Of a DNA stretch of 64,000 bases, positions 40,808 through 56,350 are shown one piece after another. This DNA comes from Savitreella phatthalungensis (lineage: Eukaryota): contig AP039690.1 of assembly GCA_051599415.1 (NCBI GenBank), positions 868,001-932,000 of the forward strand. The letters run 5' to 3'. The notes beneath the pieces were generated by a model. That model was not told where the DNA came from, searched no databases, and saw only the letters and a list, made by a program, of their open reading frames with translations. Positions within the stretch are counted from its first letter, which is position 1. Each line of letters starts with the position of its first letter. The translations under genes and the position numbers were made by a program.

Positions 40808-42715
40808 TTACCATTTCGTTTTCAGCAATCCTCGCATCATGTCAAATGAGTTCCCATCTGCCTGCACGCCGATGACCTGTCCTCGTTCCCCGGTCAATCG
40901 AACTTGAAGGTGTCCGTGGGTATGATGGATGCCAACGACTACTCCACGAAGATTGCCTTCCTTTTCAATCGTGACGTGCTGGCCGTTGTGCAGCCAATGG
41001 CGATAATATCTCTCGGCAATCGCGGCAAAGCCACCGCCGTCAAACTTTGCCACTAGCTCTTCCAGTCGGGAGAGCAGGGCGGCTAACAGATTTTCCATCG
41101 CCACTGATTCCTTGACAAAAGCATTGACGGAGATCGTTGGGGCAGGATTGTTCACATTGACGCCACATCCGATTGTCAGAATGTACTTATCCTGCCAGAA
41201 AGTCGTGCTGATTAGCGAACCAGACACCTTGGCGTAATATTTGCCTTCCAGCTCAAAACACGACGTGCCCAAGGTGTTTTGTGACTGTGGAACCCGCATG
41301 TAGACATCATTTGGCCACTTGATGCCAAGTTCGAGCTCTGGACTGAGCTCGAGCAAGGCCTCGACAGTGGCAAGCGATATCAGATATTGGAAAAATACCA
41401 GCCCTGCAGCTCCTCCACTTCCTGGAGAATCAGCCAGGTCATGATACAAGATGAGGCTGAAGGAGAGCACACCGGGAGGAGATATCCAGCTGTTTCCGCC
41501 CCGACCACGCCCGGATAATTGATGTGAACACAGCATCAAGGTCCCGTGTGGCAGATCACGAGAAAGTGAGAAGTTCTTGTCTAGCATCGTCTGTGATGAT
41601 GTCACTACCTCCGCGTACAACCCAGCAACGCCAAGCCGTGCATGAGGAGACAGCAGACCGAGAAAGCGGCCGACATCGAATAAAGGTGATGGCTCTGCAA
41701 ATCCCAAAGACACATATTTTATCTGTTTGTCCAGATCGTCGGCAAGCGGTTTAATCTGTGGTGCCGACTCGCCATCTGACAAAATCTGGAATGTGTCGTT
41801 CTCACAGACGATGAGGTTTGCCTTTGAGATCTTGCTGCTTAGCACAGCTATTAGCTTTTCTCTTGACCCCTGATCCTTCGCAAAGAGCTGTAAGGTCGAG
41901 AGCGACGGCAACGAGCTTGCGGAATCATTGACGCGCAGGCACAGCCGTTTGTCGAGAATCGACCTGAAAAACGACAGGCGCGCATTTTCATGCTTGCCAA
42001 GCGCATCGTTATTCAAATCTATCTGATCGTTTTCCGAGACGTCGTCGTGAGATCCTGTGCAGATCGTCCGCGGACCGATCTCAGGGTGAACCGCAGACAG
42101 GACCGCAACGCCACGATCCACGTCGCATTTGACCACGCACGCGTCGCCACCTCCAACAACAATGGAATCGGCTGATTCGCTGTATCTCGCGATCACTTCC
42201 ACACCTGGCTTCTCTATCGCATCGACGAACACGCCGCCTCCATTCCAATAACAGCGAAATGGTGGCATTTGCGTTGAGGGTTGTATTGAAACGGCGCGCG
42301 CCCCGATTTCCGAGTCATATGAGAAACCCTCAAAGGCACATCCCCGTACCACGCCCGGGAAGAATCCGAGATCTCGATCACCAACGACTGCCATATCGGC
42401 CGAGCTGGCTTCGAATTCGCACCTGCTTGCAGCGAAATACGCTCCGGCGCAAAGCCCAAGGTACTTGCCCCCTTTTGAGACGAAGGATCGAATTGCGTCT
42501 GTGCCACGACCACGAAGCGCCGCGCAGAAAGGGACGTCCCTCCCGCCCGGAACAACAAGCAGCGCGGTCGAGCTTGCCCAAGGCTCCTCAATCAATGCTC
42601 TTGCATCTATAGTTCTGACAGAATAGTACGGTGTCAGGAGCAACGTCAGCGTCGCCAGCGCTCCTCTGACAGAAGATTTTGAGGTTCCCGCTCCGGCGTA
42701 GACCAGAACATTCAT
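40808..42715 (-). CDS. BPL1: Biotin-protein ligase (holocarboxylase synthetase) with BPL_N domain
   Basis: MNVLVYAGAG, PGGRD, GLCAGAY (BPL_N); QLSGRGRGGNSW, IKWPNDVY, DGNSFDMMRGL. Confidence 0.96.
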   Translation of the reverse strand: MNVLVYAGAGTSKSSVRGALATLTLLLTPYYSVRTIDARALIEEPWASSTALLVVPGGRDVPFCAALRGRGTDAIRSFVSKGGKYLGLCAGAYFAASRCEFEASSADMAVVGDRDLGFFPGVVRGCAFEGFSYDSEIGARAVSIQPSTQMPPFRCYWNGGGVFVDAIEKPGVEVIARYSESADSIVVGGGDACVVKCDVDRGVAVLSAVHPEIGPRTICTGSHDDVSENDQIDLNNDALGKHENARLSFFRSILDKRLCLRVNDSASSLPSLSTLQLFAKDQGSREKLIAVLSSKISKANLIVCENDTFQILSDGESAPQIKPLADDLDKQIKYVSLGFAEPSPLFDVGRFLGLLSPHARLGVAGLYAEVVTSSQTMLDKNFSLSRDLPHGTLMLCSHQLSGRGRGGNSWISPPGVLSFSLILYHDLADSPGSGGAAGLVFFQYLISLATVEALLELSPELELGIKWPNDVYMRVPQSQNTLGTSCFELEGKYYAKVSGSLISTTFWQDKYILTIGCGVNVNNPAPTISVNAFVKESVAMENLLAALLSRLEELVAKFDGGGFAAIAERYYRHWLHNGQHVTIEKEGNLRGVVVGIHHTHGHLQVRLTGERGQVIGVQADGNSFDMMRGLLKTKW

Positions 42716-42729
42716 GAAACACTGCGCAA

Positions 42730-42748
42730 GCGTACGTACGTACGTACG
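42730..42748. repeat. (CGTA)n microsatellite immediately 5' of BPL1
   Basis: GCGTACGTACGTACGTACG. Confidence 0.85.
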
Positions 42749-43026
42749 GACACTTATGATCGCTCAATAGCCTCTTGACAACCAGTCAGTTTGCGAGCGA
42801 GTTGCAGCGTGCACAGCTAACATCCATGTGTAACTAATGCATGTTAGTACGCATCAATTTCTTTGATGAATGCAGCAATAACCGTGCAAGACCTGGACAT
42901 ATGATATCGAAATGGAGCGCCAAACTGGCTGCTTCGTGTCACTAAGTCAAATCACTCCGATCTTCATTGGAATTTGAGGCACACTCATCGGGTGAGCTAT
43001 TATGCAAGTGTATCTTTCAGAGACGA

Positions 43027-44973
43027 CTACAACTTGGCTTTTGAGCTAGCTGATGGTTCAAGCACACATAGCAATGAGGCCTCGCCAATTTGCTCGCCCA
43101 CCTTGATGTCCTCGGGTATGCTCTTGACCGTGCCCGTGCGAGGACTACGCACGTCGATCTCCATCTTCATTTGCCGTAGTACAGCGATGACCTCGCCTTC
43201 GGCCACAAAATCACCTGATTCCACCAGGAGCTCAACGAGAATTCCTGAGAATGGTGAGGCGACCTGCCAAGGGTCCCGTTTGTCCGCCTTTGCGTGTCTC
43301 GTTGCTCCTTGAGCTCGTTTGAGTGTGAATTCCTTTGCTTCAGTCGAGCCAACCGGCAGGAACTCCGCAGCCACATGTTTTGGCCAATCCATGCGACGCA
43401 ATTTCGTCACTTCCAGTAGCTGAGGTGCACCTCCCCCAAGTGAGAATTCAAATTTGTCACCCTGCCTGAAAAGCTGCCCTGAGTTCGAGCCGGACTGTGT
43501 CCAATCCCGACTTGCCGCCTGACTAGCTTTGACTTGTGCCTGACTGAGCCTCTGCGCCTGATGTTCGCGCTTTGTCAAGTACGCTTGACCTGCACCGACA
43601 ATACGGGAGACCATCGATGCATTGGACAGTGTCGTGATGTCAATAAGACCCGGCCGGTGGAGCAGATTGCTGCGTGTTAGACCAATGAGAAGAGATTGAT
43701 TAGTGTCGACGCCATTGATGCGAAGCGATCGTAGTGCTGCTACAGATCGCCGTAAGGCGATCTTGTAGGTGGCGCCGGAACAGATGACTTTCGCTACCAT
43801 GTTATCGAAGAAATCCGACACCAAGTAGGATGTCGTATTGCTGAGAAGAGAGTCAACACGAACACCAGGTCCGGCAGGCAAATTATGCGACGAAATCAGC
43901 CCGGTCGCAGGGGCGAACGTGATAGGATCTTCCGTGTTGACCCGACTCTGAATGGCATGACCCAAGGGAGCGTGTGGAAATGAGATCGACTCCAAGTTCA
44001 GTCCGTCGAGGCAGACGCCTAACAAGAGCTGCACCAGGTCTATGCCAGTAACTTCCTCCGTGATGGTGTGTTCCACCTGGATTCGCGGGTTGCACTCCAT
44101 GAAATAAAACGGAACTGATTCGCCGGCTGCGCGCGCGTCCACTAGAAATTCGAAAGTGCCGAGACCAATATATCCAACGCGCCGTGCCAGCTTCAAAGAC
44201 GCTTCGATGATCGGTGCCACACGATCGCGGGTCAAGGAAGAAGGCGCGATTTCAATCACCTTCTGGAAGCGACGCTGAAGCGAGCACTCTCGTTCGAAGA
44301 CATGTCTTACATTCCCATATCGATCACCAACGATTTGAACTTCAACGTGCTTGAACCCCCGGAGAGCGGCCTTCTCACAAAAGACTTGGCGCGATGGTGA
44401 TTCGTTGATAGCTTCTCCAAATGCACGTTCAGCTTCAGCAGATGACTCCACAATTCGGATACCGCGGCCTCCGCCACCGTCTTTGGCCTTGATGATGACT
44501 GGGAAGCCGACCTGATTCGCGAACTTGAGGACTCCATCCACGTCGTTCACGGCTGAAGTGGAAGGTAAGGTCGAGACGCCCACGTTAGCAGCCAATGCCT
44601 TTGCTTCGGTCTTATCACCGAGAGTCGCTAGCACGTCAGCAGACGGGCCAATGAATGTCATACCTGCTTGCATCACTGCTCGCGCAAAGGCCGCCGATTC
44701 ACTCAGGAACCCGTAGCCAGGAGCTATGCCTTTGCAGAGCCCACGTCTCGCGATGTCGACAATCTTTTCGATGTCCATGTACTGTGCCGGGGAATCAAGC
44801 CTGATAGAAACCGTGGCGTCGATCGCGTGCGCACCATCGTTGTCGGTGAACAGCGCGATGGTCTCAATACCACGCTCGTGACATGCGTTGATCAGCCGAA
44901 CTGCGATCTCGCCTCTGTTGGCGATCAGCACACGGTTCTCTGGCCCCGTCGGAGGCTTTCTCATGCCCCGCAT
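43027..44973 (-). CDS. Biotin carboxylase-BCCP (acyl-CoA carboxylase alpha subunit) with C-terminal PTS1 -AKL
   Basis: VLIANRGEIA, PGYGFLSE, KAKDGGGGRGIR, ERECSLQRRFQK, ECNPRIQVEH, GPGVRVD; biotinyl motif RQMKM; ends SKAKL*. Confidence 0.92.
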   Translation of the reverse strand: MRGMRKPPTGPENRVLIANRGEIAVRLINACHERGIETIALFTDNDGAHAIDATVSIRLDSPAQYMDIEKIVDIARRGLCKGIAPGYGFLSESAAFARAVMQAGMTFIGPSADVLATLGDKTEAKALAANVGVSTLPSTSAVNDVDGVLKFANQVGFPVIIKAKDGGGGRGIRIVESSAEAERAFGEAINESPSRQVFCEKAALRGFKHVEVQIVGDRYGNVRHVFERECSLQRRFQKVIEIAPSSLTRDRVAPIIEASLKLARRVGYIGLGTFEFLVDARAAGESVPFYFMECNPRIQVEHTITEEVTGIDLVQLLLGVCLDGLNLESISFPHAPLGHAIQSRVNTEDPITFAPATGLISSHNLPAGPGVRVDSLLSNTTSYLVSDFFDNMVAKVICSGATYKIALRRSVAALRSLRINGVDTNQSLLIGLTRSNLLHRPGLIDITTLSNASMVSRIVGAGQAYLTKREHQAQRLSQAQVKASQAASRDWTQSGSNSGQLFRQGDKFEFSLGGGAPQLLEVTKLRRMDWPKHVAAEFLPVGSTEAKEFTLKRAQGATRHAKADKRDPWQVASPFSGILVELLVESGDFVAEGEVIAVLRQMKMEIDVRSPRTGTVKSIPEDIKVGEQIGEASLLCVLEPSASSKAKL

Positions 44974-45239
44974 GAGTGACTATTCAGACTGACGACGGAA
45001 GTGACCACACGCCTACAGGTGGACTACGTTGGTCTCCTGTGCCCTTAAAGTCATGAATTCGATGATCAACTTCGCGTGTAATCCCGTTCGGATCTCGGTA
45101 CGGGGTAGCACAACTCGAAATTGCGGGGTTCAGAGTGCAGAACTGGCATGAGTTGAAGACATCCCGATGAGACGACAGTGACTGCAGCATCTCGACAATC
45201 ATCGCAATAGAGGCGTGACATCAACGATCAAGTGTGAGA

Positions 45240-46895
45240 ATGCCAAACGAGCGGCGCAAGCAGCGAAGAGCTGCAGACTGGTCCCCAGTACTCGATCGTA
45301 TCAGGCATATTCAGCATCTCTCTCGGGCTCCGCCCAAGGATACACGCGGCTACCAGGCGCACATCCGAGCAGGGAAGCAATGGGTGAGAGAAAGAATTAA
45401 ATGCCTCGTCGACGAGGGCAGCTTCCAAGAGATTGGTAGTGTCACTGGAACGGCGGAATATGAGGAGGCGAATAAAGTCAAAAGTTTTGTGCCTACGAAT
45501 ATGGTGACAGGACTTTGTAAGCTTAATTGCCGTCCTGTCGCTCTTGCTGCTGACGATTTTACAATCCGAGCGGGCCATGCTGACGGTGCGCTGTATGCCA
45601 AAGCTGCATATATCGAGCAACTAGCTCAGAGTCTGAAGATGCCGCTCATAAGGCTCATTGACGGTGCCTCTGGCGGTGGCTCTGTTGCTGTATACAAAGA
45701 GATTGGCTTCACATACATCCCACCTTCGACTGGAGCTGGCTGGCAGACGATGGTGGACTCCTTGTCAGTGATTCCCGTGATAGGATGCATCCTTGGGGCA
45801 TCCATTGGCCTTGGAGCGGCCAAAGCATCGACGACGCATTTCTCCGTCATCTGCGCACCTATCGGATCACTTTTCAATGCAGGCCCGGTTGTCGTGGAGG
45901 CAGCTGGCATTGAATCTGGGCTGAGCAACGCTGAACTTGGGGGCCCCGAGGTCGTTTGCACCAACGGCGCGATTGACAACTTCGGAGCAACTGAGGAAGA
46001 ATGCTTCGCAATCATTCGCAAATTCTTGTCTTATCTGCCCTCGAGTGTGCTTGAGCTTCCACCGACGCGTAGATACGACGCTGCCTCGGTTGAGGAGCGT
46101 GCTCGTCGGCATAAGTTCTTGGACACCTGTATTCCGAATCAGTCTAACCGTGCATATGCCATCCGACCGGTGATCGAGGCTCTTGTCGACGCCGATAGCT
46201 GGTTTGAGGTTGGCCCGAAATGGGGCTCACCTTGTGTCGCTGGCCTCGCACGTGTGCGAGGCAGGCCTTGCGGCATGATTGCATGGGACACAGAGAGTGC
46301 TTCGCTCGGGAATTTAACAGCTGAAGCTGCGAAAAAGCTTAAGCGTCATGTCGAGCTCTGCTCGCGATTCGGTTTGCCAATCGTTCAGCTTGTGGATATG
46401 TCGGGATTTGCGATCGGTTCAGCAGCAGAGCGGGCAGGGACGATGCGTGCTGGTGTGGACGCAATACTTTCTGTTTATCAGGCTAGTGTGCCCTTCTTCA
46501 ATGTGGTCATCCGAAAATGCTACGGGGTTGCCGGCGCCTTCCTTGTGGACAACAAATTGCCACATTTCCGGATTGCGTGGCCTTCCGGAGAATGGGGCTC
46601 CCTCCCACTGGCCGGCGGTATCGAAGCTGCCTATGCCTGGCCACTGAAGCAGGCGATGCAAAAAGGCGGGCCAGAAGCACGTAAGGATCTCTATGAGAAA
46701 CTCAAGGCAGAGTTCGATGTGCTTGGCGATCCAGTCCGCACGGCGATCAACTTCGGCATCGAGGAAATTGTACAACCCTCGCAGACGCGTGCCATTGTGG
46801 CTGGCTGGCTGGAGCGTATCTATGAAGTGCACCTGCCAATGCGACTGAAGATTGAGCAGCTCAAGCACTCGCTGATCGGCAAGAGCCTTTTGTAA
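45240..46895 (+). CDS. Carboxyltransferase (acyl-CoA carboxylase beta subunit)
   Basis: VRERIKCLVDEGSF, ADDFTIRAG, GASGGGS, LFNAGPVVV, ELGG, VDMSGFAIG..AE, IRKCYG, AWPSGEWGSLP; ATG at 45240. Confidence 0.92.
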   Translation: MPNERRKQRRAADWSPVLDRIRHIQHLSRAPPKDTRGYQAHIRAGKQWVRERIKCLVDEGSFQEIGSVTGTAEYEEANKVKSFVPTNMVTGLCKLNCRPVALAADDFTIRAGHADGALYAKAAYIEQLAQSLKMPLIRLIDGASGGGSVAVYKEIGFTYIPPSTGAGWQTMVDSLSVIPVIGCILGASIGLGAAKASTTHFSVICAPIGSLFNAGPVVVEAAGIESGLSNAELGGPEVVCTNGAIDNFGATEEECFAIIRKFLSYLPSSVLELPPTRRYDAASVEERARRHKFLDTCIPNQSNRAYAIRPVIEALVDADSWFEVGPKWGSPCVAGLARVRGRPCGMIAWDTESASLGNLTAEAAKKLKRHVELCSRFGLPIVQLVDMSGFAIGSAAERAGTMRAGVDAILSVYQASVPFFNVVIRKCYGVAGAFLVDNKLPHFRIAWPSGEWGSLPLAGGIEAAYAWPLKQAMQKGGPEARKDLYEKLKAEFDVLGDPVRTAINFGIEEIVQPSQTRAIVAGWLERIYEVHLPMRLKIEQLKHSLIGKSLL

Positions 46896-52180: not shown

Positions 52181-54790
52181 TCATCTCGAATTAAGGAGTT
52201 TTTGTAGGGCAGCTTCGATCTGTGGCCAAATGATGTCGCTTGTTTCTCCGCGGAAGTTGACTAAGATCCCTCGCTGCTCATAATAATGCTTCAGTGGAGC
52301 CGTGTTCTCGTCATACACAGCAAGTCGACGTGTAAATGTCTCAGCAACATCATCAGCTCGCTGCGTCAAGCGTTCGCCCGTCAAGTCATCCTGACCAGGC
52401 ACCTTTGGGGGATTAAATGTAAGGTTGTAGGTTCTGCCGCTCGGAGCATGGATCCAACGGTTGACGATCCGATCGAGAATCACCTCGCGAGGTACATCGA
52501 GATTTATGACGGCAGTCAGATCCGCTCCGGCGATGCGCAGATCTCGATCGAGGGTGCGTGCCTGTGCAATAGTCCGAGGAAAGCCGTCGAGAACGAAAGA
52601 CTTGTCGAGTAGCTGGTTATCCCGTAGATGGGCTAAGACCATGGAGCACATCAAATCGTCGTCTATCAACTGTCCTGCCTCAACGATAGCCTTTGCTCGA
52701 ATACCGAGATCAGTGGATTGAACGATCTGCTGTCTTAGTAGATCGCCAGAGGATACAACGACGATCCCCTCGAACGTCTCCATTATACGCTTCGAATGTG
52801 TACCTTTCCCTGCTCCTGGAGCGCCAAGGATGAGTCCACGAATTGCTCGGTCTCTATGATGTGCTTTGAGGGAGGCGCATGTAGCATCGTAGTCTGCCAC
52901 CAACCTCTCCATTGTCGCTCCGATCTGTCCAGTGTGCTGCACAATATGACAGCCGGCTGTAGCTAGCATTTCTGTTTTCTGTGCAGCGGTTAGATCTCCG
53001 GGCATTCGAAGAGCGCCCGCATGGCCCATCACGCGCATTTCAGGGGCCGTAAATCCAGCAATCATAGCTACGATTGGCTTTGGATTGGGCGTCTTGTTGT
53101 ATTCTGCAATAAAGCTTGCAGCCTCCGCTTCAGCCAATCCACCAATCTCACCGAGGACAACGATCCCTCGCGTATCTGCGCGTTGGACAAAGATGCGGAG
53201 GGCGTCTACCAAAGACGTGCCTGCCAGCATATCGCCGCCCATACCAACCACCAAAGATTGACCAAGGCCTACACGCGTCGTCTCGCCGACAGTCTCGTAC
53301 GAAAGCGTGCCGCTCTTCGACACGATGCCAATGCAGCCCGGCTCGTACTGCAAATATGGCATGATGCCGACACGACATTGGCGTGGTACGATAGTACCTG
53401 GGCAGTTTGGACCGATCAGTCGTGTCTTGCCCGCGGATAACCGCAGTGCATCATGCACCCGTAGCATGTCGTGTATCGGCACACCTTCCATGACTGCCAC
53501 GACCAGCGGAATTTGCGCCTGTATGGCGGCGATGATCGCATCCGCAGCTTTTGCAGCAGGCACGAAGACTGCACTGACATCCGGGTCGACATCTGCCACT
53601 GCCTCGCGGATCGTGTTGAAGACAGGAAGCTCGAGATGGCGCTGTCCACCTTTGCCCGGCGAGACTCCACCAACAACATTTGTGCCATAAGCGATAGTGT
53701 CCCGAGCATTGATGGTTGCCTGCCTGCCTGTGAATCCCTGGTACACGACACGTGTATGTCTGTCAAGGTCCAATCGGAGCACTTTTGCCCTGCGCGCATC
53801 GTCCATACAGGATCGCGAGCTCGTGTGAAACTGCCGACGCCCAGACGGCACAGTTGCAGTAGCTGGGGCCTGGCGTAGCTTGGCTTGTTCGATCACAGCC
53901 TTGGCTGCGTCCTCGATAGCATCGCAGCTCGTGAGCGATAGACCTGAACTTTCAATGATCTGGCGGCCCTTGTCCATATTTGTCCCGCGAAGACGTATCA
54001 CGACGGGTGTATCTTTCATCTGAAGTTCGCGCACTGCTGCGACAACGCTCTCGGCGATCATGTCGCATCGTATCAACCCGCCGTAGATGTTAACCAGAAC
54101 GGCTCTGGTATGTGGTCCTCGAAGCAGCACATCGAAGCCCTTAATAAGCAAAGCAGTCGTCGCTTGACCGCCAGTGTCGAAGAAATTAGCCGATTTCCCA
54201 CCATAGAGCGAAATCACATCATTCGTTGCCATTGCAAGTCCAGCGCCATTGACAACGCAGCCAATATCGCCGCCGAGATCCGCGAAAATCAATCCAGCTT
54301 TGTCTGCTTCCTTTTCCCACGCGGTGCGTATGTCATCACCTCGCAAGGAGGCCCACTCGAGTCTTCTGAATGCCGCATCTGGGTCAACTCTGATACGGGA
54401 GACGACGATCTGTTCCTCGACAACGGAGAAGGCTATCTCGATTGCTTCAAGTCTCTTAAATGCTGACCAGACAGCGTCCAGCTGCGGCATTGCGCTGTAA
54501 CTCCCCCCGTTGGACGCGTCAACCAACAGATCCTTGACTTGATCCGAAAGCGTGGCCCTCGTGTACTCGAGACAGTGCATGTGCGTTCCGTGGCCGAAGG
54601 TGTCTAGCACCGGCCTTTTGAGCTCACGATCTATACGTAGAGCGTACGTAACAGCCGCCTCGCACCGGTCAGCTACATTGAGACGGAAAGGTTGCAATAG
54701 CCTTTGAGCATCATCTTGTCGCAAAGTTCGAAAGCTGCGATTAGGAGCGAGCTTTTGTATCGATCTGAAATGTGATCTCATCATCGACAT
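52181..54790 (-). CDS. Fusion: succinyl-CoA-ligase-like beta (ATP-grasp truncated) + alpha + AK3/Adk2-type adenylate kinase
   Basis: Beta: IGCVVNGAGLAMATND, ANFFDTGG, NIYGGLIRCD, RLRGTN. Alpha: YQGFTG, GPNCPG, SKSGTLSYE, GEIGG, MGHAGA. Kinase: GAPGAGKGT, SSGDLLR, LDGFPRT, RWIHAPSGRTYN, QRADD. One uninterrupted 869-aa frame. Confidence 0.9.
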   Translation of the reverse strand: MSMMRSHFRSIQKLAPNRSFRTLRQDDAQRLLQPFRLNVADRCEAAVTYALRIDRELKRPVLDTFGHGTHMHCLEYTRATLSDQVKDLLVDASNGGSYSAMPQLDAVWSAFKRLEAIEIAFSVVEEQIVVSRIRVDPDAAFRRLEWASLRGDDIRTAWEKEADKAGLIFADLGGDIGCVVNGAGLAMATNDVISLYGGKSANFFDTGGQATTALLIKGFDVLLRGPHTRAVLVNIYGGLIRCDMIAESVVAAVRELQMKDTPVVIRLRGTNMDKGRQIIESSGLSLTSCDAIEDAAKAVIEQAKLRQAPATATVPSGRRQFHTSSRSCMDDARRAKVLRLDLDRHTRVVYQGFTGRQATINARDTIAYGTNVVGGVSPGKGGQRHLELPVFNTIREAVADVDPDVSAVFVPAAKAADAIIAAIQAQIPLVVAVMEGVPIHDMLRVHDALRLSAGKTRLIGPNCPGTIVPRQCRVGIMPYLQYEPGCIGIVSKSGTLSYETVGETTRVGLGQSLVVGMGGDMLAGTSLVDALRIFVQRADTRGIVVLGEIGGLAEAEAASFIAEYNKTPNPKPIVAMIAGFTAPEMRVMGHAGALRMPGDLTAAQKTEMLATAGCHIVQHTGQIGATMERLVADYDATCASLKAHHRDRAIRGLILGAPGAGKGTHSKRIMETFEGIVVVSSGDLLRQQIVQSTDLGIRAKAIVEAGQLIDDDLMCSMVLAHLRDNQLLDKSFVLDGFPRTIAQARTLDRDLRIAGADLTAVINLDVPREVILDRIVNRWIHAPSGRTYNLTFNPPKVPGQDDLTGERLTQRADDVAETFTRRLAVYDENTAPLKHYYEQRGILVNFRGETSDIIWPQIEAALQKLLNSR

Positions 54791-55171: not shown

Positions 55172-56350
55172 ATGATGGTTGAGGGCATCGCCCCGATGAC
55201 AGCGGACGACGATTCGTCCGCACCAGTAGACCTCGTCGAGCTGTCACGAAACGGAGCTATAATGGAGGTCAGCCTCAATAGACCGGGCAAATTGAATGCG
55301 CTGTCTGGGGAACTCATAGAAAGGCTCTCGCTGACTCTCTTGCAATGTGAGAGGGACTCTGGAGTTCGAGTCGTTGTGCTCAGAGGCAAAGGCAAAGCTT
55401 TCTGCGCTGGTGGTGATGTCGCTGCTCTTGCGCGGCTCGCCAAACACGGGACGCAGTCTTCCATCCATGAGGGGAATAAGTTCATGCAGCGACAATATCA
55501 GCTCAATCATGTGGTGGCGACACTGAACAAGACCACGATCGCAATCTGGGATGGCATCGCGATGGGCGGCGGTATTGGCGCGTCGATTTGTCAGGACTTT
55601 CGCATCAGCACAGAAAACACGATGATAGCGATGCCCGAATGTGCTATTGCGTTTTTCCCCGATGTCGGAGCATCCTATTTCCTGAACAGGCTGGACCATG
55701 GGATCGGTGCCTGGCTGGCCCTGTCTGGATCTAGAGTCAAAGGCGAAGACGCAGTGCTGCTCGGACTAGCTACCCATCATGTTGCTTCGGACCGCTTAGA
55801 GGGCTTACTCGCGGCGCTCGCTACCGAATGCGCATACGATAAAGAAGAAGTTGACAGGTTGCTCACGCGGTCGTCCTCCAATCCTCCGACAGGACAAATG
55901 CACGCCAAGCGAGCGCGGATACGCGCAATTTTCCAAGCTGGCAGCTTGAAGGAGATACTGCAGCATCTCGAAGAAAGCAGAGAAACGTGGGCCGCAGAGA
56001 CCCTTAGGAACATTCGTTCAGCTTCTCCAACTGCTGTTTGCGTCACCTTTGAACTTTTGAAGCGCACGAAAGGACTGAAAGCAGAACAATGTCGAGCTCT
56101 TGAATTCGTTGTTCACACGAATTTCATGCGTCTGCCTGACTTTGTGGAAGGCACGTTCGCCAGACTTATCGACAAGCCGGCGAGAACGGCACGGTGGTCA
56201 CCCTCCAGCATTGAGGATTGCACCGAGCAGTACGTCGCGTCGTTCTTTATCCCGAAAGATGCTCCACTGCGTTTGCGTGCGCAGATTGCGGATGAGGGAC
56301 GCCAGAATCGGTACGCAAGACACGCGCGACTAGTTCAAGCTACGCCTTAA
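55172..56350 (+). CDS. 3-hydroxyisobutyryl-CoA hydrolase family (crotonase fold, Ehd3/HIBCH-like)
   Basis: LNRPGKLNAL, AFCAGGDV, WDGIAMGGGIG, AMPECAIAFFPDVG, DFVEGTFARLIDK...W; first in-frame ATG at 55172. Confidence 0.92.
   Translation: MMVEGIAPMTADDDSSAPVDLVELSRNGAIMEVSLNRPGKLNALSGELIERLSLTLLQCERDSGVRVVVLRGKGKAFCAGGDVAALARLAKHGTQSSIHEGNKFMQRQYQLNHVVATLNKTTIAIWDGIAMGGGIGASICQDFRISTENTMIAMPECAIAFFPDVGASYFLNRLDHGIGAWLALSGSRVKGEDAVLLGLATHHVASDRLEGLLAALATECAYDKEEVDRLLTRSSSNPPTGQMHAKRARIRAIFQAGSLKEILQHLEESRETWAAETLRNIRSASPTAVCVTFELLKRTKGLKAEQCRALEFVVHTNFMRLPDFVEGTFARLIDKPARTARWSPSSIEDCTEQYVASFFIPKDAPLRLRAQIADEGRQNRYARHARLVQATP

What the first reader, a model, noticed from the sequence alone, without database searches (positions are those of the whole stretch)
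40808..46895. Biotin ligase plus a divergent two-subunit acyl-CoA carboxylase: a compact biotin-enzyme module
Seen: the BC-BCCP and CT genes are head-to-head with only 266 bp between their ATGs (44973/45240), and BPL1 starts 311 bp after the BC stop on the same strand. Known: Bpl1 biotinylates BCCP domains. The pair does not look like ACC1, PYC, urea carboxylase or mitochondrial MCC: there is no clear presequence, and CT motifs such as DDFTIRAG and WPSGEWGSLPLAGGIEAAY recall an uncharacterised bacterial-type CT family (from memory). Inference: a co-regulated carboxylase of unknown substrate clustered with its activating enzyme.
Basis: partly seen in the sequence, partly recalled or inferred. 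Interest (0 to 1): 0.75.

Follow-up and report, generated by a model that had tools for sequence, protein, structure and literature searches.

The report
Peroxisome-tagged two-subunit fungal biotin carboxylase
Two back-to-back fungal genes encode the halves of a biotin-dependent CO2-fixing enzyme of an unstudied family that carries peroxisome address tags, pointing to an undescribed reaction in fungal peroxisomes, while the neighbouring biotin ligase is the cell's ordinary single copy and probably sits there by local accident.

Summary
The three genes and both spacings are real. The CT falls in an uncharacterised clade apart from PCC, MCC/GCC and LCC (AU p=2e-47 against PCC). The BC groups with single-chain bacterial carboxylases.

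The alpha subunit ends in AKL; 47 of 70 fungal homologues have a strict PTS1, against 0 of 120 controls. Most non-Taphrinomycete CTs carry a PTS2, Taphrinomycete-type CTs carry PTS1-type ends instead (7 of 12 strict), and this CT ends in non-canonical SLL.

BPL1 is the genome's only biotin ligase and is not adjacent to the pair in 5 of 5 relatives, so the three-gene module is unsupported.

Best reading: a peroxisomal acyl-CoA carboxylase acting on beta-oxidation intermediates; substrate unknown; canonical PCC role unlikely (no mutase found). The scan noted this peroxisomal reading earlier on another genome (e1-7702481). Ten literature searches found no description.

The parts
43027..44973 (-). 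Alpha subunit: biotin carboxylase (aa 13-436), helix plus small beta-sheet linker (about aa 452-553, BT-like, lead only), BCCP (aa 570-639, biotin Lys603), C-terminal PTS1 AKL
   Evidence: Pfam; invariant BC residues and K603 in 55 of 55 aligned rows; AF2 model pLDDT 86.7; BC tree; PTS counts
43030..43038 (-). Codons of the C-terminal PTS1 tripeptide AKL of the alpha subunit
   Evidence: Translation ends ...SKAKL; 47 of 70 fungal homologues strict PTS1, 69 of 70 end [KR][LI]
44974..45239 (.). 266-bp divergent intergenic region, presumed bidirectional promoter
   Evidence: Sequence; head-to-head order also in fungal metagenome locus L015; promoter function is inference
45240..46895 (+). Beta subunit: CoA carboxyltransferase of an uncharacterised clade; C-terminal non-canonical PTS1-like SLL, no N-terminal PTS2
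   Evidence: Pfam; 28% or less identity to all solved CTs listed, TM about 0.8; trees; motifs; termini
40808..42715 (-). BPL1, the genome's only biotin-protein ligase (housekeeping); neighbour, probably not part of the conserved unit
   Evidence: Pfam; single copy; not adjacent in 5 of 5 relatives
42716..43026 (.). 311-bp gap between alpha stop and BPL1 start; holds a short (CGTA)4 repeat at about 42731-42748
   Evidence: Sequence; gap size compared

Best explanation
The divergent genes encode the alpha (BC-BCCP) and beta (CT) subunits of one biotin-dependent acyl-CoA carboxylase that works in the peroxisomal matrix. Cytosolic Bpl1 biotinylates Lys603 of alpha (inferred). Alpha is imported by its PTS1; beta by a weak PTS1 or piggy-back in this lineage and by PTS2 in Pezizomycotina and Mucoromycota (signals shown, import inferred). 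BC uses ATP and bicarbonate to load CO2 on biotin (catalytic residues conserved), and CT moves it to an acyl-CoA. I favour PCC-type carboxylation at C2 of a short- to medium-chain acyl-CoA that peroxisomal beta-oxidation makes or cannot finish, such as a branched or dicarboxylic ester (inferred; about 0.35 for this substrate class). The alpha-beta linkage is ancient and probably selected for co-expression; the BPL1 adjacency is local to this lineage.
For: Targeting: alpha ends AKL; strict PTS1 in 47 of 70 fungal alphas, 0 of 50 mostly single-chain, bacterial-type hits and 0 of 120 BPL1 controls. PTS2 pattern in 61 of 108 non-Taphrinomycete CTs (100 of 108 with a pattern relaxed after seeing the alignment), 0 of 120 controls, 0 of 12 Taphrinomycete-type CTs, which instead have a strict PTS1 in 7 of 12. 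The motif has the same form as the N-termini of two thiolases in this genome. Protist BCCP-CT fusions of Diplonema and Thecamonas also end AKL. Partnership: consecutive accessions in 5 of 5 species; head-to-head in L015; both trees show Taphrinomycete, Pezizomycotina and Mucoromycota branches. Catalysis: K121, K162, H209, K238, E275, E293, N295, R297, E301, R344 and K603 invariant in 55 of 55 (match to E. coli BC residues recalled). Chemistry: the CT profile scores PCC/ACC beta chains at 260-290 bits and MCC/GCC at 163-195. Bacterial relatives often sit beside CoA ligases, acyl-CoA dehydrogenases, thiolases and hydratases.
Against: No localisation, expression or activity data. The window's own CT ending SLL fails both the strict pattern and the published pattern in PMC8611851. 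No such carboxylase is listed in the Histoplasma peroxisome proteome tables (PMC13343957; whether that fungus has the genes was not checked). Linkage is not universal: fungal loci L017 and L020 have no alpha within 10 kb either side. Most bacterial CT relatives have no BC nearby (1 of 80 genome loci, 0 of 74 bacterial metagenome loci, flanks variable), so the family need not work as a dedicated carboxylase. Bacterial neighbourhoods vary and name no substrate.
Confidence: 0.72

Rival explanations
1. The three genes are a co-regulated module: BPL1 was recently moved beside the pair because co-expression with its client is selected.
For: Direct adjacency, same strand as alpha, 311 bp. Chance that a single BPL1 borders one of 4 BCCP genes among about 5,600 genes is about 0.15% by my arithmetic, a post hoc figure for one genome.
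Against: BPL1 is single-copy and must serve ACC1, PYC and the C8 enzyme too. Not adjacent in 5 of 5 relatives. No BPL1 in any of 160 fetched related loci, 6 of them fungal. The gap is ordinary for this genome.
Confidence: 0.13
2. It is what databases call it: a propionyl-CoA carboxylase, here detoxifying peroxisomal propionyl-CoA to methylmalonyl-CoA.
For: Automatic names; PCC beta chains are the best solved matches by sequence and fold; odd-chain beta-oxidation yields propionyl-CoA (established knowledge).
Against: AU test rejects a fungal-CT plus PCC clade, p=2e-47. Pocket-lining motifs differ from PCC throughout. No methylmalonyl-CoA mutase found, while a PrpD of the methylcitrate cycle is present.
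Confidence: 0.1
3. The physiological direction is decarboxylation or transcarboxylation of a malonyl-type CoA ester, as the BC-less bacterial relatives suggest.
For: BC within the held flank in 1 of 154 bacterial loci; a small BCCP or biotin/lipoyl domain in 19 of 154; Bacillaceae operons with two CTs, a mini-BCCP and CoA ligases.
Against: The fungal partner keeps every BC catalytic residue in 55 of 55 rows. Single-chain bacterial members fuse an intact BC to this CT type (P0382, P0389, P0393). Each of 5 bacterial genomes checked has 3-9 BC genes elsewhere that could be borrowed.
Confidence: 0.1
4. It works like geranyl-CoA carboxylase: vinylogous carboxylation of beta-methyl-branched enoyl-CoAs so that peroxisomes can degrade isoprenoid acids.
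For: Peroxisomal location and beta-oxidation neighbours in bacteria; the beta-methyl block to beta-oxidation is established knowledge.
Against: The CT lies outside the MCC/GCC clade and scores MCC/GCC chains about 100 bits below PCC chains. The genome has a separate MCC/GCC-group pair on contig C8.
Confidence: 0.1
5. It supplies the precursor of pimeloyl-CoA for peroxisomal biotin synthesis, for example crotonyl-CoA to glutaconyl-CoA, or malonyl-CoA.
For: [quoted passage not shown] This genome has a BioF-like gene ending AKL and BioB. A basic residue at CT position 195 is conserved through the core clade.
Against: PTS2 thiolases already explain the pex7 effect (one search shows them here; the link is my inference). 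No biotin-synthesis genes were recognised among the bacterial neighbour clusters I annotated (only 26 representatives scanned). The pair is not near bioB or bioF in this genome.
Confidence: 0.07

Closest known systems
Long-chain acyl-CoA carboxylase, single-chain BC-BCCP-CT (PDB 4rcn; Tran et al. 2015, recalled, not read)
   Same: The BC domain groups with single-chain bacterial enzymes, 100/95 support; these are the nearest non-fungal hits of alpha. L195, in the same CT group as those hits, has 4rcn as best match.
   Different: Two chains, not one. About 180-200 residues between BC end and biotin lysine against about 100-130. CT lies outside the LCC CT clade. Peroxisomal signals.
Propionyl-CoA carboxylase alpha/beta (PccB 1xnv, human 7ybu) and mycobacterial AccA3/AccD5 (9yx2, 9t97)
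   Same: Alpha(BC-BCCP)/beta(CT) layout and folds; best solved matches for the CT (TM about 0.8); the 9yx2 alpha chain has the best query-normalised TM-score (0.71) among the listed matches.
   Different: 25-28% identity; separate clade (AU p=2e-47); family-specific motifs around the acyl pocket; no mutase in the genome; PTS instead of a mitochondrial presequence.
Methylcrotonyl-CoA and geranyl-CoA carboxylases (3u9r, 8j4z, 5ikl)
   Same: Two-subunit layout; subunit genes clustered in filamentous fungi (Aspergillus mccA/mccB, recalled).
   Different: Both subunits fall outside the MCC/GCC groups; the genome's MCC/GCC-group pair is on contig C8.
Pyruvate carboxylase
   Same: Best BC matches by sequence; sister to the fungal plus single-chain BC group; the stretch leading into BCCP scores best against the genome's PYC.
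   Different: No pyruvate CT domain; NCBIfam score 494 against a cut-off of 965; true PYC is on contig C18.
Fungal 'acyl-CoA carboxylases' noted by Lombard and Moreira 2011 (PMC3199775; passages and section 6 read)
   Same: [quoted passage not shown]
   Different: In the parts read there is no mention of localisation, gene linkage or substrate; whether their sequences are this family was not checked.

Membership tests
Biotin-dependent CoA-ester carboxylases (XCC) | Intact BC domain with catalytic residues | tested here: met
   Pfam; invariant columns in 55 of 55 rows; E. coli residue equivalence recalled
Biotin-dependent CoA-ester carboxylases (XCC) | BCCP with MKM biotin lysine | tested here: met
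   K603, M604 invariant; Biotin_lipoyl hit
Biotin-dependent CoA-ester carboxylases (XCC) | Full double-crotonase CoA-type CT subunit | tested here: met
   Carboxyl_trans aa 43-520; AF2 pLDDT 84.9, TM about 0.8 to PccB-type chains
Biotin-dependent CoA-ester carboxylases (XCC) | Alpha and beta form a holoenzyme with carboxylase activity | not testable with these tools
   Needs co-purification and assay; inferred from linkage and shared targeting
Propionyl-CoA carboxylase | Beta subunit within the PCC clade | tested here: not met
   Trees; AU p=2e-47; PCC rows were labelled by Pfam score and motifs, not by assay
Propionyl-CoA carboxylase | Alpha BC domain within the PCC alpha clade | tested here: not met
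   Tree; no AU test completed
Propionyl-CoA carboxylase | Downstream methylmalonyl-CoA mutase in the genome | tested here: not met
   0 matches, control rang in 8 of 14 genomes; the assembly may be incomplete
Propionyl-CoA carboxylase | Activity on propionyl-CoA | not testable with these tools
   Needs assay
MCC / GCC | Both subunits within the MCC/GCC clades | tested here: not met
   separate MCC/GCC-group pair on C8
Single-chain LCC | BC-BCCP-CT in one polypeptide | tested here: not met
   Two divergent ORFs
Single-chain LCC | BC domain of the single-chain group | tested here: met
   100/95 grouping
Single-chain LCC | CT within the LCC CT clade | tested here: not met
Pyruvate carboxylase | Pyruvate carboxyltransferase domain | tested here: not met
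   No such Pfam hit in 648 aa
PCC/MCC-type alpha subunit | BT docking domain between BC and BCCP | tested here: inconclusive
   Helix plus 3 strands at low pLDDT; BT clusters at 0.83-0.85, lead only; no profile match to PCC, MCC, PYC or LCC linkers
Peroxisomal matrix protein | Conserved PTS1 on alpha | tested here: met
   AKL; 47 of 70 strict, controls 0 of 120 and 0 of 50
Peroxisomal matrix protein | PTS1 or PTS2 on this beta subunit | tested here: inconclusive
   SLL fails the strict patterns, but 7 of 12 close relatives have a strict PTS1 and 61 of 108 distant ones a PTS2
Peroxisomal matrix protein | Observed peroxisomal localisation | not testable with these tools
   Needs microscopy or fractionation
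Conserved BPL1-carboxylase gene cluster | BPL1 adjacent to the pair in relatives | tested here: not met
   0 of 5 species
Conserved BPL1-carboxylase gene cluster | Dedicated second BPL copy | tested here: not met
   One copy; the second PF03099 hit is weak, 22.9 bits, and has no similarity to BPL1
Conserved BPL1-carboxylase gene cluster | Co-expression | not testable with these tools
   Needs RNA data across conditions

The most novel reading that the evidence does not exclude
An ancient peroxisomal biotin-dependent carboxylase, kept from chytrids to Dikarya and tagged for peroxisomes also in apusozoans and diplonemids, carries out a carboxylation no one has placed in this organelle. It may be the missing PTS1-plus-PTS2 step that makes the pimeloyl-CoA precursor for fungal biotin synthesis, or a route that frees blocked beta-oxidation intermediates. 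Its beta subunit switched from PTS2 to PTS1 in Taphrinomycetes although that lineage still has PTS2-type thiolases.
Probability: 0.3. Interest if true: 0.8.

Novelty: new variant of a known kind. Interest (0 to 1): 0.58.

Why it matters
Biotin carboxylases are textbook cytosolic, mitochondrial or plastid enzymes (own knowledge). A conserved peroxisomal one in fungi would add a carboxylation step to an organelle central to fatty-acid use, biotin synthesis and secondary metabolism. It would also correct widespread database labels ('PCC beta, mitochondrial', 'pyruvate carboxylase'). The CT defines a large clade with no solved structure and no assigned substrate that I could find, spanning many bacterial phyla and several eukaryotic lineages. 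The fungal pair makes it directly testable by knockout and assay in a laboratory fungus.

Tried and rejected
Complex prediction of CT with alpha 440-648: no verdict, score 0.00, alignments not used.

Sequencing runs: no RNA holder listed. X3 and X4 gave only scattered near-identical short contigs and X5 one 38-bp piece, so there was no synteny information.

Linker as a pyruvate carboxylase PT domain, which looked plausible by eye: no profile-profile signal, probability 0.05; PCC, MCC and LCC linkers also negative.

AU tests for the BC tree were not completed; the script machine failed.

Rhodosporidium fitness supplements (PMC5922974) showed no row for this enzyme, but file 1 was cut when stored. 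Sordaria miniTurboID passages were uninformative.

A CGG-type zinc-cluster site pattern matched the window at chance level. A findings search for a BPL1-carboxylase cluster returned nothing. Nearby SCS-ADK and HIBCH genes as cluster members: no peroxisomal ends, and no full-length homologues in 160 related loci. Loss of the PTS2 route as the reason for the PTS1 switch: two thiolases here keep a PTS2 motif; Pex7 itself was not searched. Regions fetched and most were not analysed further.
Full report
Observation. The window comes from an intron-poor 12.7-Mb fungal genome whose closest named relatives are Protomyces and Taphrina. The three ORFs are as described: BPL1 40808-42715 (-), BC-BCCP 43027-44973 (-) and CT 45240-46895 (+), with gaps of 311 and 266 bp. 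A contig of run X1, possibly the source of this DNA, spans the region without differences. The gaps are ordinary here: among 28 window ORFs, divergent gaps have median 477 (n=8) and tandem gaps median 526 (n=11).

Inventory of the genome. There are 3 CoA-type CT genes and 4 BC genes: a 2318-aa ACC1-type frame on C11, a 1204-aa PYC on C18, a pair 31 kb apart on C8, and this pair. The C8 beta chain matches MCC/GCC-group structures best, though at a level that does not prove it is canonical MCC. BPL1 is single-copy. No methylmalonyl-CoA mutase was found; PrpD, BioB and a BioF-like gene ending AKL are present.

The CT. It has the PccB fold (AF2 pLDDT 84.9; TM about 0.8) but only 24-28% identity to the solved chains listed. 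Homologues at 44-79% identity fill the 119 other top hits and, where named, are ascomycetes and Umbelopsis, apart from one record labelled Quercus suber. In an 83-row quick tree and a 35-row careful tree (LG+G4) the fungal CTs are one clade. That clade sits inside a larger one, support 100, that holds only uncharacterised proteins and excludes PCC, MCC/GCC and LCC rows. Forcing fungal CTs with PCC is rejected, p-AU 2e-47. Reference rows came from five bacterial genomes and were labelled by score, motif and architecture; only L195 (4rcn) and the C8 beta chain were anchored to solved structures. The clade includes stand-alone bacterial CTs, single-chain BC-BCCP-CT proteins (P0382 from Binataceae, P0389, P0393), a chytrid protein (Synchytrium), and BCCP-CT fusions. 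The Diplonema japonicum fusion was in the tree; the D. papillatum and Thecamonas ones were assigned by profile score and motifs only. Motifs around the acyl pocket differ from PCC, including a conserved Asp115 and a basic residue at 195; their roles are not shown.

The alpha subunit. All BC catalytic positions and the biotin lysine K603 are invariant in 55 of 55 aligned fungal rows (equivalence to E. coli residues recalled). In a 62-row careful tree the fungal BCs of Mucoromycota, Basidiomycota, Taphrinomycetes and Pezizomycotina form one clade (100/100). It groups with single-chain bacterial enzymes (100/95), with PYC as sister, away from PCC and MCC alpha chains; no AU test was completed. 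Between BC and BCCP there are about 60-80 more residues than in single chains, modelled as a long helix and three strands at low confidence. ESM Atlas features point weakly to BT domains (0.83-0.85), and profile comparison found nothing. Whether the pair arose by fission of a single chain or preserves an unfused ancestor is open.

Alpha ends in AKL. Of 70 hits I assigned as fungal alphas by length and name, 47 end in a strict PTS1 and 69 in [KR][LI]; 7 of the 70 are near-identical Parastagonospora alleles ending ERL. The other 50 hits score 0 on both patterns, and 120 BPL1 controls score 0 strict and 18 loose. Of 108 non-Taphrinomycete CTs, 61 carry R[LVI]x5[HQ][LI] in the first 70 residues, and 100 match a pattern I relaxed after seeing the alignment; BPL1 controls score 0 of 120 on both. 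The 12 Taphrinomycete-type CTs lack this N-terminal extension; 7 end in a strict PTS1, two including this one in SLL, and one looks truncated. SLL fails the published pattern in PMC8611851 (passages), so import of this beta chain is inferred from its relatives or from piggy-backing. Two thiolases of this genome begin with the same PTS2-form motif, which serves as an internal control and shows that the switch is specific to this gene. A signal that changes type between lineages but is kept, on both subunits, is hard to explain without selection for peroxisomal import.

Synteny. Alpha and beta have consecutive accessions in Protomyces, Taphrina, Aulographum, Acephala and Phyllosticta, 5 of 5. 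Of 6 fungal metagenome loci, one (L015) shows the head-to-head pair, two have no alpha within 10 kb, and three are too short upstream to tell. BPL1 is on another contig in Taphrina (338 accessions away), Amylocarpus, Lecanosticta, Dothidotthia and Meristemomyces, where it was compared with whichever subunit I held: 0 of 5 adjacent. Protomyces could not be tested. The adjacency is improbable for one genome (about 0.15% by my post hoc arithmetic), so recent selected clustering is not excluded, but nothing supports it.

Bacterial context. Of 154 bacterial loci with this CT type, 1 has a BC in the held flank and 19 have a small BCCP or biotin/lipoyl domain; 44 genome loci had full 8-kb flanks. Recurring neighbours are CoA ligases, acyl-CoA dehydrogenases, thiolases, hydratases and other dehydrogenases (rough clusters; 26 representatives scanned). 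This suggests catabolism of an organic acid through its CoA ester, without naming it.

Mechanism. Shown: domain content, intact catalytic residues, family placement, targeting motifs, gene linkage. Inferred: biotinylation by cytosolic Bpl1, import, assembly, and ATP-driven carboxylation of an acyl-CoA in the peroxisome, most likely at C2 because the CT is nearer PCC-type than MCC-type chains. The substrate is most likely a beta-oxidation intermediate that is branched or dicarboxylic. Rivals are listed with odds. The boldest is supply of the pimeloyl-CoA precursor, prompted by the statement in PMC3713238 (passages) that this step may need PTS1 and PTS2 proteins.

Prior knowledge. Ten full-text searches showed no paper describing a peroxisomal fungal acyl-CoA carboxylase in their listings; the six exact phrases hit one mouse liver paper, which I did not open. 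The library lacks most subscription journals, including fungal microbody proteomes such as the Neurospora study seen only in a reference list, which may list these proteins. Lombard and Moreira 2011 (PMC3199775; passages and section 6) mention fungal acyl-CoA carboxylases without detail. The Histoplasma peroxisome proteome (PMC13343957; passages and supplement search) does not list one. An earlier agent in this scan reached the same peroxisomal reading on another genome (e1-7702481); I had recorded mine before seeing it, and it is not independent support.

Verdict. A real, widespread, mis-annotated two-subunit biotin carboxylase family with strong sequence evidence for peroxisomal location and no known substrate. 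The biotin-ligase module is not supported. New variant of a known kind; interest 0.58.

Noticed in passing
window 52181-54790 (-) and 55172-56350 (+): One 869-aa ORF fuses the C-terminal half of a succinyl-CoA ligase beta chain, a full alpha chain and a complete adenylate kinase. It is divergent from a 3-hydroxyisobutyryl-CoA hydrolase-like gene. Other CoA-ligase loci exist on C14, C23 and C13, so it is an extra copy.
   Followed up: partly
G000:C8:214785-216398 (L010:6785-8398) and G000:C8 about 246.2-248.6 kb (L013, L242): The genome's only MCC/GCC-group pair lies 31 kb apart, is divergent from canonical MCC (long branches), shows no obvious N-terminal presequence, and the beta chain ends SRM, a PTS1-type end. 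It may be a second unusual, possibly peroxisomal carboxylase.
   Followed up: partly
L107, L174, L125, L030, L034, L132: Bacillaceae-type operons with this CT type, two or three CoA ligases, a 70-aa BCCP, often a second, different CT and a peptide-type ABC transporter, with no intact BC (L132 has only BC fragments).
   Followed up: partly
P0421, P0402 (Diplonema), P0398 (Thecamonas), P0388, P0408 (unnamed): Eukaryotic BCCP-CT fusions without BC, all ending AKL or CKL: a third architecture of the family, also with peroxisomal tags.
   Followed up: partly
L245:1453-2694 (-) (G000:C6) and L233 (G000:C14): BioF-like gene ending AKL and a BioB gene, on different contigs: the fungus probably makes biotin with a peroxisomal first step.
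   Followed up: partly
L017:11681-12520 (-); L020:4945-5994 (+): In two fungal loci lacking a nearby alpha, a convergent 279-aa ORF with no Pfam match ends AKL (L017), and a CoA ligase ending SKI lies about 4 kb upstream of the CT (L020).
   Followed up: no
window about 42731-42748: A self-complementary (CGTA)4 repeat lies 16-33 bases upstream of the BPL1 start codon.
   Followed up: no
P0377 (Synchytrium microbalum): The chytrid CT is annotated with an N-terminal polyketide cyclase/START-like domain; real fusion or merged gene model not checked.
   Followed up: no
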